In this document: piece by piece, positions 1 through 7,670 of the stretch
Layout: every line of letters begins with the position of its first letter
How positions within the stretch are numbered: the first letter of the stretch is position 1
Source: Eledone cirrhosa
Taxonomy: Eukaryota
DNA length: 64,000 nucleotides
Reading direction: 5' to 3'
Assembly: GCA_964016885.1 (NCBI GenBank)
Contig: OZ024743.1
Location: forward strand, 20,894,001-20,958,000
Position numbers and translations under genes: made by a program
The notes under the pieces: generated by a model
What the model saw: only the letters and a program-made list of their open reading frames with translations
What the model was told of the DNA's origin: nothing
The model's database searches: none

Positions 1-720
1 CCATCAGACTCTGATATTAGCATTCTTCAAAAAAGATGCCTATTTCCTGATAGAAAAGCACCTGTTGAAGAAATTGCTAAAAAATTGATTGAATTGTATT
101 CTATTCCTGAATTAAAATTTGTATGCATTTTACCTTTGAATGAAGCTGTTGATGAGTTGAATAATGAAATGATTAAAATATGCAACATAAATGCAGTGAA
201 ACTTGCTGCAAAAGATTCTGGTATGAGACAAGTAAATGGAAGAAAAAAGAAAAATGTTGAAAAAGGCAAAGACAAGAAAACTTCTGATACTGCTGGACTA
301 GAAACTTTGCTAAATGTTGGAATTGGAGCAAGAGTAATGTTGTAACGAAACATTGATGTAGATCAAGGCTTATGCAATGGTGTTATTGGAACAGTTATTA
401 AATTAATTGGGAACGGAAGCAATGTTGACAAAGTTTTGGTGTCTTTTGATACCAAAAAGGACAAACCCATTTCCATTGGAAGAGTTCAAGCAGACTATGA
501 AATTTCTCCTGGTGTTTTTGTCACCAGAACACAATTTCCATTGTCTCTTGCTTACTCTATAACAATTCACAAATCACAAGGAATTTCTGTGGATGGAATA
601 ATTGCTGATTTAGGAAATCAGATATTTTCTGATGGTCAAGAGCCAGAAAATTTTGCAATGTGTATCTATGTGACTTTGATCCAAGATCATTGATCATGGT
701 TGACAAATCTGCATGGGAAG
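1..720 (+). pseudogene. C-terminal half of a PIF1-family (SF1B) helicase, Helitron/Helentron RepHel-like; disrupted
   Basis: Reads GLETLLNVGIGARVML*RNIDVDQGLCNGVIGTV...RTQFPLSLAYSITIHKSQGISVD...IFSDGQ (PIF1 2B region and motif V). Stop at 343-345. Most of motif VI (YVALSR) is deleted near 640, with a frameshift into RARKFCNVYLCDFDP, which is the frame of ORF 660-1559. Confidence 0.88.
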
Positions 721-914
721 AGTACAACAAACTACGGGATAGTACTGGAAGAGCAGATTTGCCTCCATTGCCACCTTGCAGGAAAAAGCATCCTTGCATG
801 GCAAATGCTTCTAGCATCCCCAAGAAAAGAACTAAAAGACTTAATTTGGAAGAAAATTCAAACCAACCTGCCAAAAAGAAGAAAAGAAATGAAAACAGCC
901 AAACTTTAATCACT

Positions 915-1769
915 AAACATCAATTGATCAACCAAAGAAATGCTTGTTTTGCAAATTCAGTTGTGCAATCACTGAATCAATTGCCTGAATTTGTAGAGTA
1001 TTTGCATAATTTTAACAACATGAATGGAGTACATCAAGAATTAAGCAATATCATTTTTAATAATCTTAATAATGTCTCTAACTTAAGAAGAATAATTGGA
1101 GGAAGAATTTATGATGGAAATCAGCAATGTGCTCATGAATTTTGGAAAGAACTCTCTCTACATTTGGACTTGGTATTTAGAGAAAAACTTCAATTTATTC
1201 AAACTGATCATACTAGATGCATCCGATTGCATCAAACAAATTGCCAAGCTCTAAATAACAATGTTTGCAATTGTAATTCAAGACCTGGATGTGGTATAGA
1301 ATCTGAACTTCCATTTCAAATAAAAGAGGATTTGATATTAAATCCTATTAATGGCACACAACAATTTAAATCTCTACTTTCACCAACAAATACTTTGACT
1401 AAATACTGTGATACTTGTTCTGAAAATACTGAGCATCAAATAACTTCAAGAATTGAATTTACTAACGATTTCAAATATCTTGTCATCTCAAGTAGTAGAT
1501 TTTTGATTAATAATGAAGGAGAACAAAGAATTAATTGTGATATTATGAACTTTAGCTAAAAAAAGCAGCAAATATATGGCACAAATTTCACATTAAAAAC
1601 TGCTATTCTTCATGAAGGAGTATCATCTACGGCAGGCCATTATACTTGTCTGGTAAAAAGTGGTGCTGAAAATTGGGATGAAATTAGTGACAACATTACC
1701 AAAAAAAGGCACAAAAAAGTTCCTCCTAAGTTACCTAATGTGGTTGTATTGTTTATGGAAAAAATTTAG
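915..1769 (+). pseudogene. Ubiquitin-specific protease (peptidase C19/USP) domain in frame with the helicase C-terminus
   Basis: Cys box LINQRNACFANSVVQSL and QQCAHEF (QQDAxEF box), plus CxxC pairs. After one in-frame TAA (1557-1559) the same frame continues ILHEGVSSTAGHYTCLVK...WDEISDN...VVVLFMEKI* (His box and Asp), ending at TAG 1767-1769. Confidence 0.85.
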
Positions 1770-1777
1770 ATTTTGGA

Positions 1778-2012
1778 TTTTGGACTATTGATCTTGGACT
1801 ACCAACTTATAATTAGGACTACTGTTAATTCTGGACTACTTCATTTTGTTTTGGACTCTAATGCTGATTCTGGACTACTTAATTTTATTTTTGACTACTT
1901 GCTGCTTATTTTGGACTAAATGCTGATTTTCGACTACATAATTTTATTTTGGACTAAATGCTAATTCTGGACTACTTAATTTTATTTTGGACTAACTGCT
2001 AATTATGGACAA
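1778..2012 (+). repeat. Degenerate ~20-22 bp tandem repeat built on TTTTGGACTA(C)T
   Basis: About 12 recurrences of (g)gact(a) at ~20 bp spacing directly after the USP stop codon. Confidence 0.75.
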
Positions 2013-2414
2013 ATTATTGTTGAATTTGAGCTCACTATATATTGGCATTTTATTTATGTAGTACTTAATTTTATTTATTTTTGACTCAGTTATTTTAATT
2101 GCTTGTTTTTCTAGCATCTTTAATAACTTCACTTGTTAAGTTAAACTCTAAATTGATCATTAGAGTATAGTCAATTATAACTTTGTCTCTATGGGCACAC
2201 CCGAAGGCTTGTAGTAAGGGTGTTCAGAAAAGGCAAATGTCTCTATTGATTATATTCTACAAAATACCTTTTCAATTTTAATATTTTGGATTTTATAGAA
2301 ATATTGAAATGAAAAATTAATTTGTATTGATGTAAAAAGGATTGTAAATGCCTTAGCAAATGGTCAAGGTAATTTAAATAAAATAATTTGCTGCAATGCC
2401 TTAAAAAAAGGGGG

Positions 2415-3524
2415 ACTAGACCGAAAAATGTGGGCGCATGTGTATTAATATTATTAAATAATAATAAACCTGGAAAAGTACAGGAAAAGTAGAATTAACT
2501 CTTAAAATATTGAAGCTGGAATTTGAATTTGATGAATTAAATGTACAATAATAAGCCTATGACATCACACTTAATCACAAGGAGGTGAAGGTTGTTAAGA
2601 TGGCATGGAACAGGACGTTTCGGTGCAGGCATTTCTGTGCCAGCGTTTCAGCACAGGCATGTGGAATGGTCATTCCTAGCTCTTTCATGGATAGATTTAG
2701 AATAACACAAGAATGACCTAAAGACAACCAAGATAATTTTTTAATTTAATTATTAATTAAATAATTAGAAACGATCTAGAAATCACCTTGATTCATTAGG
2801 AATGGTCTAGTTAATCTTATCTAAAACATAGTCTCTGCTTTCCTCATAAGAAAGGAACAGTAATCCAGATTATCAATCAGAATGATATCGCACTTGATCA
2901 CTAAATTTTCTTTTTGAAATACAGTTGACTATCTATAATTGTCACTCAAAGGAACTGTAAAAATAACTGACAATTAGGGAGAGTTACAAAAAATAAAAGT
3001 TGGGCCAAAAATGGCGTTGACAATTAGGGAGAGTCAACTGTAATTCGATCTTGACAAATTTTGGCTTAACTTTTTTTTAAATGAAATTAGATTAATAATT
3101 TTAATATGATGACAATTTTATGCAAAATTTAGCTCATTACTTTTTACTATTAATTTCAATTAAATTTTAATGTCAATTTTTAAAGTAATACAGTATAATT
3201 AACCCACTAAAGGGACAAAAAAAGTGACAACTTAAATGAACTGACAATTTATGTAAAAAAGATTGATGACATTAATTGCATTTGGTTGGCAAAATGGTGA
3301 TTGCTGACTTAGGCAACCTGATGATTTAATATCTAATAAATACCCTAATTCATTATTATTTCTTATTATCTCTTGGCATTGCTAATTTTACTGTACATTG
3401 AATTCATCAAATTCAAATTCCAGCTTCAATATTTTAAGAGTTAATTCTACTTGTCCTGTACTTTTCTAGGTTTATTATTATTTATGAATATTAATACACA
3501 TGCGCCCACATTTTTCGGTCTAGT
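2415..3524. repeat. ~133 bp inverted repeat pair (2415-2547 and 3392-3524) with ACTAG...CTAGT outer ends
   Basis: actagaccgaaaaatgtgggcgcatgtgtattaata...gatgaattaaatgtaca is matched in reverse complement by tgtacattgaattcatc...catgcgcccacatttttcggtctagt. The right end abuts a TA-rich microsatellite. Confidence 0.9.
2922..3040. mobile_element. 119 bp Tc1/mariner-pogo-type MITE
   Basis: 23 bp TIRs cagttgactatctataattgtca / tgacaattagggagagtcaactg (3 mismatches), TA on both sides, with an internal extra copy of tgacaattagggagagt. Confidence 0.75.
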
Positions 3525-3875: not shown

Positions 3876-4869
3876 AGTCCACGCTGTAATGTGGCCGTGT
3901 AGGCAACACGGTAAAAACCTCTCAGACCCACACTGTAAATGTGGTTGGTGTTAGGAAGGGCATCCAACTGTAGAAAACCTGCCAGACAGTCCTATGCGAG
4001 CAAGACAATCACTCTTGCCTCAAGTGGGACTACGCCCGTCCAAACCCATGCAAGCGTGGAACACGGACGTTTAACGTCCGTGTTCCACGCTTGCACAGGT
4101 TTGGACGGGGGTTTTCCCACTTGAGGCAAGAGTGATTGTCTTGCTCGCATAGGACTGTCTGGCGGGTTTTCTACAGCGGGATGCCCTTCCTAACACCAAC
4201 CACATTTACAGTGTGGGGCTGGGAGGTTTTTACCGTGTTGCCTACACGGCCACATTACAGCGTGGACTGTCTGGCGGGTTTTCTACAGCTGGATGCCCTT
4301 CCTAACACCAACCACATTTACAGTGTGGGGCTGGGAGGTTTTTACCATGTTGCCTACACGGCCACATTACAGCGTGGACTGTGTGTTTTTTTGTCGTGAC
4401 ACCTACACAATCTCATTTGTTTCGGCCTGGATGTTGTGGCACCAGCATAACTTTACATTGAAAGGGGCGGTGTGGATGGGGTGGGGGTGGTAGGACGGGG
4501 GTGTATTTTGTTAGAGATGCCTACTGACTGTAGTAGGTTTTCCTTTGTATTTAGGTAAGGCGGGTCTTCTCTATTACTGAGTACTGCCAAAGGTCTCGGT
4601 CCAGTGACATTGTCTTGGAGAGGTATAAGTGTGTGAGGTCGGAATTTATCAGCTCGTCCCAGGTTTTTCTGGGTCTGCCTACTCCGTAGCTACCGTCTAT
4701 CTTTATTGCCCTGCACTTTGTTATACAGCTGTCGTCTTTCATGCGCATCACGTGACCATACCAACGTAGCCTTCTCTCGAGTAAACAACATCTGATCCCT
4801 CTTATTTCTAATTTTTTCCTTAGTTCGCTTATGCTTTGCCGTTCACGTATGTTACTATTACACATCCAT
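3876..4869 (-). mobile_element. RTE LINE 3' fragment (minus, ~4070-4869) fused tail-to-tail to an inverted copy of its own 3' UTR (3876-4070)
   Basis: ORF 4551-4865 equals the C-terminus of the RT at 5629-7290. Palindromic junction acacggacgtttaacgtccgtgt near 4071. Internal ~110 bp tandem duplication (about 4152-4263 / 4264-4380) bounded by ggactgt. Confidence 0.9.
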
Positions 4870-4896
4870 TTATATATATTATATATATATATATAT

Positions 4897-5585
4897 TATT
4901 CATTAGTTAAGCAAAACCTGACAACAGATTTCACAAGGAAGACATTATTAAAAGATTGTCAACATATTTTAGTTTGATGTAAGGAATGTAGCGAATAATA
5001 ATATTAATAATAATAATGTCCCTTTACAATTGTTTCGTTACTCCATATAATATTTCTGGATCAAATATTTATATATAATTATTGATCTGGTTCAGTTGAA
5101 AATAATTAACATACGTAGAACTAGAGCAGCTCATCGGAACTTCAAAAGGAATATAAATTAAAATAAGGAAAGAATGTTACATAAATCTAATGTTCCACAT
5201 GTTAATTATTTTCAACTGAACCAGATCAATAATGATATATAATCATTTGATCCAGAAATATTATATGGAGTAGCGAAACAATTGTAAACGGACATTATTA
5301 TTATTAATATTATTATTATTTATCTCTACATTCCTTACATCAAACTAAAATATGTTGACATCTTTTAATAATGTCTTTCTTGTGAAATCTGTGGTCTTGT
5401 TTTGCTTAACTAATGAATATTTCCAGCTCTGTGCACCTAACCTCAAATGAACCCAGCCACCTAGTTGCCTTCCACTGCATATTGCACATTGAGCACATGA
5501 CTTTACGCTTTGGCTTCAAACTAATTCACCAATCTCTCCTCTCCTATCTCCATCTCTCTCTTTAAGATTGGTTACTCTTAAACTG
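4897..5585. mobile_element. Fold-back PLE-type pLTR remnant: inverted arms 4897-5112 and 5199-5420, with a hammerhead-like motif on minus (5023-5140)
   Basis: Arms are reverse complements. Minus strand reads GUU-CCGAUGA-GCUGCUCU...GGAGUAAC-GAAA-CAAUUG-UA; the right arm has GGAGUAGC-GAAA-CAAUUG-UA-AAC. The core has C instead of U4. Flanked by TA repeats. Confidence 0.65.
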
Positions 5586-5601
5586 TGTATATATATATAT
5601 T

Positions 5602-7670
5602 CATATCGACCCAATAGAGGGACCAGCAGTGTTAGTCGAGGGGAGTATAATAAGTAAGGCAATCAAGGATATGAAGACGGGTAAGGCGGCTGGGCCTTTG
5701 GAAATAGTTGCTGAGATGCTGAAGGCATCTGGCACGGTGGGACACACCATGGTCACCCGCATAGTTAACCAAGTCGTACAGAATGGGGTTGTTCCGAAGG
5801 ACTGGCATAGCAGCATCATCGTTAACTGTTATAAGGGTAAAGGAGACGCCCTAGATAGGAGTAACTATAGAGGCATTAAATTAATCGACCAGGTCATGAA
5901 GGTCACGGAAAAAGTAATAGCACAACTAATCAGAGAGAGAATTGACCTAGATGAAATGCAGTTCGGGTTTGTGTCAGGCAAAAGTACCACAGACGCTCTT
6001 TTCATTGTACGACAACTACAGGAGAAGTACCTAGCTAAAGGTAAACCCCTCTACTTAGCTTTTGTCGACTTGGAGAAAGCCTTCGACAGAGTCCCCCGCT
6101 CCATTATCTGGTGGGCTCTTAGAAAACTAGGCGTTGACGAATGGCTTGTGAGAGCTATACAAGCCATGTATAAAGAAACAGTCAGCAAGGTTAGAATTAA
6201 CAACGAATATAGTGAAGAGTTTAGCGTAAAAGTTGGCGTCCATCAGGGCTCTGTTCTCAGCCCCCTACTATTTATTATTGCCCTTCAGGCTATAACAGAG
6301 GAGTTCAAGACCGGCTGCCCATGGGAACTCCTATACGCAGACGACCTGACACTTATAGCGGAATCAATGGCCGAGCTAGAGAAGAAATTCCAAACATGGA
6401 AGCATGGCCTAGAATCAAAAGGACTTAAAATTAACCTGGCTAAGACTAAAGTTCTAGTTTGTAGGAAAGAAAATAAGGCAGCGGTCCCTTCTGGGAAATG
6501 GTCGTGCTCGGTGTGTAGGAAAGGCGTAGGTAGAAACTCCATTTTATGTCCTAAATGCAAAGTATGGGTGCATAAAAGATGTAGTGGGATCACAGGTAAG
6601 CTAACTAAGAACATAGATTTTACATGTGGCCGGTGCTCTGGTGCAATAAGTAGCAGCAAGTTCCCACCAAATACTAGCTCTTTCAATTGCGCAGAGGGTT
6701 CTGTAGAAATAGTGGACAGTTTCCGTTACCTGGGTGATAAAATCAGCAGTGGGGGAGGGTGCTCTGAAAGTACAGTAGCTAGAGTCAGAACTGGTTGGAA
6801 AAAGTTCAGAGAGCTTATACCACTATTAGCTGCTAAAGGATTCTCCCTAAAAATGAAAGGCAGGTTGTACGATGCCTGCATACGAACAGCAATGTTGCAT
6901 GGCAGTGAGACCTGGGTATTGTGTGCAGAGGATATACGCAGACTAGAGAGGAACGAAGCTTGCATGCTCCGCTGGATGTGTAACAGTAATATACGTGAAC
7001 GTCAAATCATAGACGAACTAAGGAAAAAATTAGAAATAAGGGGGATCAGATGTTGTTTACTCGAGAGAAGGCTACGTTGGTATGGACACGTGATGCGCAT
7101 GAAAGTCGATAGCTGTATAACAAAGTGCAGGGCAATAAAGATAGACGGTAGCCACGGAATAGGCAGACCTAGACAAACCTGGGACGAGCTGATAAACTCC
7201 GACCTCACACACTTACACCTCTCCAAGACAATGTCACTGGACCGAGACCTTTGGCGGTACTCAGTAACAGAGAAGACCCGCCTTACCTAAATACATAGTA
7301 AAACCTACTACAGCCAGGAGGCATCTCTAACAAAATACCCCCCCCCCCCGTCCCACCACCAACCCCACCCCATCCACACCACCCCGTTCTATGTAAAGTT
7401 ATGTTGGTGCCACACCATCCAGGCCGAAACAAATGAGATCGTGTAGGTGTCACGACAAAAAAACACACAGTCCACGCTGTAATGTGGCCGTGTAGGCAAC
7501 ACGGTAAAAACCTCCCAGACCCACACTGTAAATGTGGTTGGTGTTAGGAAGGGCATCCAACTGTAGAAAACCTGCCAGACAGTCCTATGCGAGCAAGACA
7601 ATCACTCTTGCCTCAAGTGGGACTACCCCCTTTCAAACCCATGCAAGTGTGGAACACGGATGTTAAACGT

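What the first reader, a model, noticed from the sequence alone, without database searches (positions are those of the whole stretch)
1..1769. Intronless PIF1 helicase fused to a complete USP deubiquitinase domain: unusual rolling-circle-type transposon protein
Seen: repairing two stops and one small deletion gives a single frame running from PIF1 motifs V/VI through a basic NLS-like linker (PKKRTKR, PAKKKKR) into a USP domain with Cys, His and Asp catalytic residues. Established: Helitron/Helentron RepHel proteins end in PIF1 and may add an AP endonuclease or OTU protease; other DNA transposons carry Ulp1/C48 proteases. A C-terminal C19 USP is not the textbook architecture to my knowledge. 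Inference: a transposon- or virus-derived helicase with its own deubiquitinase, possibly countering host ubiquitin-based silencing or degradation. The Rep/HUH domain would lie upstream of the window, so the element class is not proven.
Basis: partly seen in the sequence, partly recalled or inferred. Interest (0 to 1): 0.78.

Follow-up and report, generated by a model that had tools for sequence, protein, structure and literature searches.

The report
Dead Helitron2 transposon with fused deubiquitinase
This is the broken tail of a multi-copy rolling-circle jumping gene whose transposase runs in one reading frame from a helicase into a ubiquitin-protease (USP) domain that likely protected the transposase from degradation; that these elements carry such a domain is already published, but the single-frame fusion and the unusual element ends refine the published picture.

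Summary
Window 1-1769 is the decayed 3' part of a PIF1-helicase-USP frame with three lesions. It lies in a 4.27-kb non-autonomous deletion copy of a Helitron2/HLE2 rolling-circle transposon; this copy has no Rep domain upstream, but longer copies in the same genome carry DUF6570, HUH-Rep and the whole helicase. The fusion is ancestral: 10 of 29 family copies are open across the helicase-USP junction, no break there is shared by more than two, a sister-family copy reads 2,411 codons with one stop, and 45 of the top 150 database relatives show the same fusion. The domain has a USP fold, conserved Cys/His/Asp and zinc cysteines, and is under moderate purifying selection (dN/dS 0.23-0.45). UCH capture by HLE2 elements was already reported (HELIANO, PMC11417382), there counted among separate ORFs. 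What this adds: the single-frame fusion, relatives with OTU in the same C-terminal slot, and hybrid ends (TC...CTRR, apparent A|T target, 5' hairpin, short asymmetric inverted repeats) like the Phytophthora proto-Helentron. Activity and substrate are untested. A new variant of a known kind; moderate interest.

The parts
1..737 (+). C-terminal part of PIF1 helicase of the RepHel transposase (2B domain, motif V, remnant of motif VI); broken by a stop at 343-345 and a 19-bp deletion near 640. The frame continues about 285 bases upstream of the window, then meets an internal deletion junction.
738..914 (+). Proline- and lysine-rich linker with two basic NLS-like motifs (819-839, 867-887); predicted disordered in the sister-family model; dN/dS not distinguishable from 1
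   Evidence: NLS role is inference
915..1769 (+). Compact USP (Pfam UCH, PF00443) domain: Cys 945, His 1638, Ser 1686/Asp 1689, four zinc-type Cys (1218, 1290, 1407, 1416); stop at 1557-1559 before the His box
1828..2014 (.). Degenerate 18-21-bp tandem repeat in the element's 3' non-coding part
   Evidence: shared by family copies
2415..2551 (-). 137-bp inverted copy of the element's 3' end, 836 bases inside it; present in most family copies
3482..3493 (+). 3' asymmetric terminal inverted repeat (12 bp, one mismatch in this copy), complementary to the 12 bp that follow the 5' hairpin upstream of the window
3520..3523 (+). 3' terminus CTAG, followed by T of a (TA)n tract; the 5' terminus (A|TC, 10-bp hairpin) is 745 bases upstream of the window at G000:C4:20893256; element length 4,268 bp

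Best explanation
The window holds a dead, internally deleted copy of a Helitron2/HLE2 rolling-circle transposon whose full-length transposase runs in one frame from DUF6570, HUH-Rep and PIF1 helicase into a USP domain that was likely an active deubiquitinase and would most likely have protected the transposase itself from ubiquitin-dependent removal. Shown: the domain order and single frame; the multi-copy family with defined ends; that 13 of 19 examined copies, this one included, share one internal deletion, so the deleted form was itself amplified; USP fold (predicted model), conserved catalytic and zinc residues, purifying selection. From established Helitron biology (recalled): Rep nicks one end and stays covalently bound to the DNA while the helicase peels off the strand; copies without Rep are moved in trans. 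Inferred: catalytic activity (about 0.8), and a cis role in stripping ubiquitin from the large, DNA-linked transposase so that it escapes the proteasome or DNA-protein-crosslink repair (about 0.45 among possible substrates). Element identity alone: about 0.95.
For: 46 matches to the helicase-USP stretch in the own genome, 40 of 60 candidates scored, 90-97% identity for the long ones. Rep-bearing copies L042 and L043 give DUF6570, Helitron_like_N, REP_ORF2-G2P, PIF1 and UCH in order. Junction open in 10 of 29 family-A copies, no stop or frameshift there shared by more than 2; open in 10 of 14 family-B copies that hold both motifs. L067 reads 1,904 + 507 codons in one frame with a single stop inside the helicase. 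57 of 150 best relatives have helicase motif V upstream of a USP hit, 45 nearly full; Pfam alone finds UCH in 8 of 14 RepHel proteins over 1,500 aa. Cys, His and third/fourth acidic residue together in 45 of 53 aligned USP domains; zinc Cys in 50-53 of 53. Model pLDDT 84, best matches USP30, USP21, USP2 at E 1e-16. dN/dS of USP 0.45 (0.27-0.76) between B subfamilies and 0.23 (0.13-0.37) window versus L067. Helitron-borne VTD domains are active deubiquitinases and the same protective role was suggested for them (PMC9741609, passages). Ser at the third position occurs in active USP16/30/45 (PMC10867860, passages).
Against: No activity, expression or substrate data. Selection on the USP is clearly weaker than on Rep (0.10) and helicase (0.13), and the A-versus-B estimate is near saturation (dS 1.96). 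8 of 53 aligned domains lack a catalytic residue. None of the 30 family-A loci has a USP free of stops and frameshifts, and 13 of 26 share the stop before the His box, in both deleted and Rep-bearing copies, which could mean late masters had already lost the USP (or a mutation hot spot beside an A run). The relatives were picked with a query that holds the USP, so their share is not a frequency. HLE2 placement rests on the DUF6570 marker and the ends, not on a tree with reference RepHels.
Confidence: 0.75

Rival explanations
1. The USP acts on host chromatin or silencing factors (for example ubiquitinated H2A/H2B) at donor or target sites rather than on the transposase.
For: Tethered to a DNA-binding nuclear protein through a basic linker; a chromatin role was proposed for Helentron OTU domains (PMC4067079, passages).
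Against: No substrate evidence either way; interchange with OTU in the same slot suggests a generic chain-removing need rather than a specific substrate.
Confidence: 0.25
2. The USP is a captured passenger, tolerated at the C-terminus and not needed for transposition.
For: Weaker selection than Rep and helicase; 8 of 53 lack a catalytic residue, and a stop before the His box is in 13 of 26 family-A copies; many HLE2 elements have no UCH (PMC11417382, section 23).
Against: dN/dS intervals exclude 1; catalytic and zinc residues kept across proteins about 25-35% identical; a second deubiquitinase class fills the same slot in two clades.
Confidence: 0.12
3. The protease processes the long polyprotein or removes another ubiquitin-like modifier (NEDD8, SUMO, ISG15-like) rather than ubiquitin.
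For: Self-processing was proposed for Helentron OTU (PMC4067079); zebrafish Helitron VTDs also cleave NEDD8 (PMC9741609); identity to solved USPs is only 14-19%.
Against: The model keeps the whole fingers-palm-thumb USP fold with the zinc ribbon, which in known USPs holds ubiquitin (established knowledge).
Confidence: 0.1
4. A host gene (single-copy or domesticated) or an endogenous virus gene.
For: Small giant-virus USPs are as close in fold (E 1e-15) and in language-model features as cellular ones, so a viral source of the domain is not excluded.
Against: Dozens of dispersed, independently decayed copies with sharp Helitron-type ends; only RepHel domains between the ends in the copies scanned; this copy has four stops or frameshifts.
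Confidence: 0.02

Closest known systems
UCH-bearing HLE2 elements, subgroups c and d of the HELIANO survey (Li et al. 2024, PMC11417382; sections 22, 23 and 24 passages, supplement parts 1-2 read)
   Same: RepHel with DUF6570, no AP endonuclease, a captured UCH (PF00443) domain, animal host.
   Different: The paper counts UCH among 17 domains encoded in ORFs separate from RepHel; here it is in frame at the C-terminus in two families and many relatives. Subgroups c/d came mostly from lungfish and axolotl; membership of this family in c/d was not tested. Figure 7 (position of UCH) could not be seen.
Phytophthora proto-Helentron and Fusarium FoHeli / HLE2-reverse (PMC4067079, PMC5148889, PMC11417382; passages read)
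   Same: HLE2-type transposase without endonuclease; 5' stem-loop; short asymmetric inverted repeats with the 3' copy some 30 bp from the end; proto-Helentron ends in CTAG and inserts between A and T.
   Different: Here the 5' end is TC (proto-Helentron TT), the hairpin and inverted repeat are adjacent, the host is an animal, the 3' kilobase is bounded by a long inverted repeat, and the protein ends in a USP. HELIANO states it found nothing like proto-Helentron in 404 genomes.
Helentrons with VTD (Herpes_teg_N) or OTU deubiquitinase domains (PMC9741609; passages read)
   Same: A deubiquitinase in the transposase ORF; VTDs shown to be active.
   Different: Other DUB classes; those elements end in an AP endonuclease, absent here; HELIANO places OTU upstream of RepHel, whereas relatives here carry OTU at the C-terminus in place of the USP.
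Cellular USPs (USP30, USP21, USP2) and small giant-virus USPs
   Same: Fold, Cys and His boxes, zinc ribbon; Ser-Asp pair like USP30.
   Different: 14-19% identity; compact (about 285 aa), no accessory domains, fused to a transposase.

Membership tests
Helitron-like elements (HLE) | RepHel protein: HUH-Rep followed by PIF1 helicase | tested here: met
   Full-length copies L042, L043, L067; absent from the window's own copy, which is a deletion derivative
Helitron-like elements (HLE) | Dispersed copies with sharp, conserved ends | tested here: met
   5' end found in 18 of 19 family-A and 9 of 14 family-B loci; 3' end in 18 of 20 family-A and 8 of 19 family-B loci
Helitron-like elements (HLE) | No target-site duplication, shown by an empty site | tested here: inconclusive
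   Three flank searches, 15 paralogues: none joined both flanks; most copies sit in (TA)n
HLE2 / Helitron2 | DUF6570 marker domain | tested here: met
   E 4.9e-19 (L042), 9.2e-18 (L067); marker per PMC11417382 section 23
HLE2 / Helitron2 | Asymmetric terminal inverted repeats and a terminal hairpin | tested here: met
   10-bp 5' hairpin with different but fully paired stems in three subfamilies; 11-12-bp inverted repeats that differ between families A and B on both arms. A 3' hairpin is weak or absent (-1.7 to -4 kcal/mol)
HLE2 / Helitron2 | Usual T|T insertion site | tested here: not met
   A precedes TC in 27 of 27 5' ends; T follows the end in 25 of 26 3' ends: HLE1-like, as in proto-Helentron; exact boundary not proven
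HLE2 / Helitron2 | Phylogenetic placement of RepHel in the HLE2 clade (and subgroups c/d) | not tested
   No reference RepHel set or HELIANO HMMs at hand
Helentron (strict sense) | C-terminal AP endonuclease | tested here: not met
   The frame ends directly after the USP; no Exo_endo_phos hit
HLE1 (canonical Helitron) | 5' TC, 3' CTRR, A|T target | tested here: met
   A|TC in 26 of 27; CTAG in 17 of 18 family-A ends; CTGG or CTGA in 7 of 8 family-B ends
HLE1 (canonical Helitron) | HLE1-type transposase (no DUF6570), strong 3' hairpin, no inverted repeats | tested here: not met
   DUF6570 present, inverted repeats present, 3' hairpin weak
USP deubiquitinases (PF00443) | USP fold and Pfam match | tested here: met
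   UCH 41-49 bits, above the cut-off, in L067 and L062; Foldseek E 5e-17 to USP30; profile E 1e-28 to USP2
USP deubiquitinases (PF00443) | Catalytic Cys, His and third/fourth residue | tested here: met
   Cys 28, His 25, Ser 26, Asp 27 of 30 family-A loci (rest mostly gaps); 45 of 53 in the wider alignment. By sequence alignment; triad geometry in the model not measured
USP deubiquitinases (PF00443) | Isopeptidase activity on ubiquitin | not testable with these tools
   Needs an assay

The most novel reading that the evidence does not exclude
A broad HLE2 lineage has a dedicated C-terminal deubiquitinase slot on its transposase, filled by a USP and at least twice refilled by an OTU, because the covalent RepHel-DNA intermediate is a target of ubiquitin-dependent DNA-protein-crosslink removal; and the families here are the first animal elements with proto-Helentron-type hybrid ends (HLE2 protein, TC...CTRR, A|T target), which classifiers could misfile as HLE1.
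Probability: 0.25. Interest if true: 0.7.

Novelty: new variant of a known kind. Interest (0 to 1): 0.4.

Why it matters
Rolling-circle transposons have picked up deubiquitinases of three classes (OTU, VTD, USP), which points to ubiquitin as a host barrier to transposition that nobody has tested. This family makes the test easy: a sister copy has a naturally intact 285-residue USP, and the ends are defined. It also corrects an annotation point (UCH is in frame with RepHel, not a separate ORF, at least in this lineage) and gives an animal example of hybrid HLE1/HLE2 ends. The locus itself is a dead repeat copy with no function of its own.

Tried and rejected
Word-index protein search with the USP region against longer proteins: 456 candidates, none significant; the HMMER search then found many, so the blank meant nothing. 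Single-sequence fold failed (pLDDT 33); repeated with a 43-row alignment. Empty-site test inconclusive. No complex prediction was obtained. Within-family-A dN/dS against one reference (helicase 1.18, USP 0.57) is not used, because the pairs are not independent. Host range is poorly known: of 30 relatives looked up only 3 name an organism (Octopus bimaculoides P0001, Caenorhabditis auriculariae P0076 and P0119), so horizontal transfer was not tested. Origin of the USP (cellular or giant virus) unresolved: both match about equally. The Tako8 hit is a repeat artefact and was dropped. Rejected: separate ORFs (no shared break at the junction); host gene or virus (see rivals); Helentron in the strict sense (no endonuclease). 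Literature searches for the fusion; only PMC11417382, its preprint and PMC9741609 were relevant, and none of the passages read describes an in-frame RepHel-USP; Repbase, Dfam and subscription journals were not searchable, the preprint's supplements were not seen, and figures are not held.

Full report
OBSERVATION. Frame +1 holds the Pif1 2B region and motif V with a stop at 343-345; near 640 the frame moves to +3; frame +3 runs through the helicase end, two basic motifs and a USP domain with a stop at 1557-1559, and ends at 1769 (positions). Pfam gives weak hits on the pieces (Pif1_2B E 2.4e-4; UCH E 3.6e-4 and 1.3e-5). Against an open natural copy the frame switch is a 19-bp deletion that removes most of motif VI, shared with one other copy. 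The stop at 343 is in 2 of 30 loci.

THE ELEMENT. Window 600-1800 has 46 matches in the 3.0-Gb own genome (40 of 60 candidates scored), the long ones 90-97% identical; the median distance from the window to 24 copies is 0.028 substitutions per site. Comparison of 19 copies puts the left end 745 bases before the window and the right end at 3523, 4,268 bp in all. Upstream of the window the helicase frame continues only about 285 bases, to just after Walker B, with one more stop, and then meets about 450 bases of 5' terminal sequence. This copy therefore has no Rep and no Walker A. 13 of the 19 copies share the same deletion junction, so the deleted form was itself amplified. Two of the 19 (L042, L043) keep the missing part: DUF6570, Helitron_like_N, the HUH motif (REP_ORF2-G2P E 1.2e-6), PIF1, UCH, in that order; a Rep search found 4 close copies among 26 matches. 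The other matches are a second family (B, 68-73% DNA identity in Rep), 19 loci fetched. One of them, L067, reads 1,904 codons, one stop inside the helicase, then 507 codons in the same frame.

IS THE FUSION REAL? If helicase and USP had been separate ORFs, copies would share a break between them. Between motif V and the Cys box, 10 of 29 family-A copies (1 of 30 too short) are open, and no stop or frameshift is shared by more than two. In family B, 10 of the 14 copies with both motifs are open. Outside this genome, a HMMER search of 1.84 billion representatives with the 507-residue piece gave, among the best 150, 57 proteins with motif V upstream of a USP hit and 45 with more than 80% of the domain (the profile was seeded with 10 of these hits, and the query favours USP-bearing proteins). 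Independently of that profile, Pfam finds UCH in 8 of 14 RepHel proteins longer than 1,500 aa, 6 of them with DUF6570, Helitron_like_N, PIF1 and UCH together. Only 3 of 30 relatives looked up name an organism: Octopus bimaculoides (P0001, 43% identical, the best hit) and Caenorhabditis auriculariae (P0076, P0119). The host of the window is thus likely an octopus-like mollusc (inference). The continuous frames show no introns.

IS IT A WORKING USP? A model of the L067 piece with a 43-row alignment has mean pLDDT 84, a disordered linker and a well-defined C-terminal domain that matches USP30, USP21 and USP2 (E 5e-17 to 1e-16, 18% identity) and small giant-virus USPs about equally (E 1.2e-15). 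In 53 aligned domains (3 from this genome) the catalytic Cys is kept in 46, His in 49, the following Asp in 44, four zinc-type Cys in 50-53; 45 have a full set. The canonical third position is Ser here (26 of 30 family-A loci) and Asp, Asn or Ser in relatives; PMC10867860 (passages) reports the same variation in human USPs, active enzymes with Ser, and dependence of most tested USPs on the fourth residue. dN/dS between two B subfamilies is 0.10 for Rep, 0.13 for the helicase, 0.46 for the linker (interval includes 1) and 0.45 (0.27-0.76) for the USP; window USP against L067 gives 0.23 (0.13-0.37) with dS near saturation. So the USP was maintained, less strictly than the core. Against: no family-A locus has an unbroken USP, and the stop before the His box is in 13 of 26 copies of both structural classes; this is either a hot spot beside an A run or loss in late master copies, and I could not tell which.

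A DEUBIQUITINASE SLOT. Nine relatives have an OTU motif where the USP would be; Pfam gave OTU hits in 9 such tails, 7 above the cut-off, and P0062 has USP then OTU. A tree of 160 helicase residues from 71 proteins (47 with short tails left out, midpoint root) puts the OTU-tailed ones in two supported clades (0.995, 0.981) among USP-tailed ones; one is sister to a USP clade at 0.90, deeper nodes are weak. This suggests, but does not prove, two replacements. dS between B subfamilies falls from Rep (0.48) to USP (0.17), which would fit later exchange of 3' parts.

ENDS. 5': A then TC in 17 of 18 family-A and 9 of 9 family-B ends found, followed by a 10-bp hairpin whose stem differs between three subfamilies but stays fully paired, then an 11-12-bp sequence whose complement lies about 30 bp before the 3' end; both arms differ between families A and B. 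3': CTAG then T in 17 of 18 readable family-A ends (2 of 20 loci interrupted); CTGG or CTGA then T in 7 of 8 family-B ends. The 3' hairpin is weak. A 137-bp (family A) or about 190-bp (family B) inverted copy of the 3' end lies about 1 kb inside. The empty-site test failed to fix the boundary. These are HLE1-type end dinucleotides on an HLE2-type protein with Helitron2-type inverted repeats, the mix described for the Phytophthora proto-Helentron (PMC4067079 passages; PMC11417382 section 24 passage) and partly for Fusarium FoHelis (PMC5148889 passages).

MECHANISM. Established for Helitrons (recalled; ssDNA copy-paste also in PMC5148889 passages): Rep nicks and binds DNA covalently, the helicase displaces the strand, Rep-less copies move in trans. 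Inferred: the tethered USP removes ubiquitin from the transposase or its DNA adduct and so prolongs its life; the same role was suggested for the active Helitron VTD domains (PMC9741609). Rivals are chromatin substrates, self-processing or another modifier, and passenger status.

WHAT IS KNOWN. HELIANO (PMC11417382, sections 22 and 23 read whole; supplement parts 1-2) lists UCH among 20 stably captured domains, almost only in HLE2, enriched in subgroups c and d, and counts it among 17 domains in ORFs separate from RepHel. The association is therefore published; the in-frame fusion was not found in the searches made. Earlier notes of this scan report the same fusion in other animal and fungal genomes; they are unchecked leads, not support.

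VERDICT. Real, correctly read in the main, but a dead copy of a known kind of element. New variant of a known kind; interest 0.4.

Noticed in passing
P0071, P0072, P0075, P0085, P0096, P0097, P0133, P0136, P0138, P0062 (one search hits): Related helicases end in one to three OTU domains instead of a USP; P0062 has USP followed by OTU.
   Followed up: partly
window 2415-2551 and 3388-3524; family B e.g. L063 7317-7545 and 8195-8385: A long inverted copy of the 3' end about 1 kb inside the element is kept in both families though their sequences differ; function unexplained (the 3' kilobase could fold back, or look like a MITE).
   Followed up: partly
window 1557-1559: The same stop is in 13 of 26 family-A copies, across deleted and Rep-bearing classes; hot spot or master polymorphism unexplained.
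   Followed up: partly
L067 versus L052-L065: Synonymous divergence falls from Rep (0.48) through helicase (0.36) to USP (0.17), suggesting recombination between subfamilies.
   Followed up: no
L097 about 1118-1145 (reverse strand): The centre of the 5' hairpin is inverted relative to all other family-B copies.
   Followed up: no
L067:150-1100: The N-terminal part of the family-B frame has a hydrophobic start and about five 17-residue tandem repeats with no Pfam match.
   Followed up: no
window 5566-7290 (+), fragment at 4551-4895 (-): 574-aa reverse transcriptase plus PHD-finger frame, likely an RTE-type LINE (class recalled), with a related inverted fragment nearby.
   Followed up: partly
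window 4152-4382: 112-bp tandem repeat, also found next to the element's left end and elsewhere in L031; an unrelated dispersed repeat.
   Followed up: no
L031:3126-6635: A 3.5-kb self-inverted region (94% identity) just upstream of the element.
   Followed up: no
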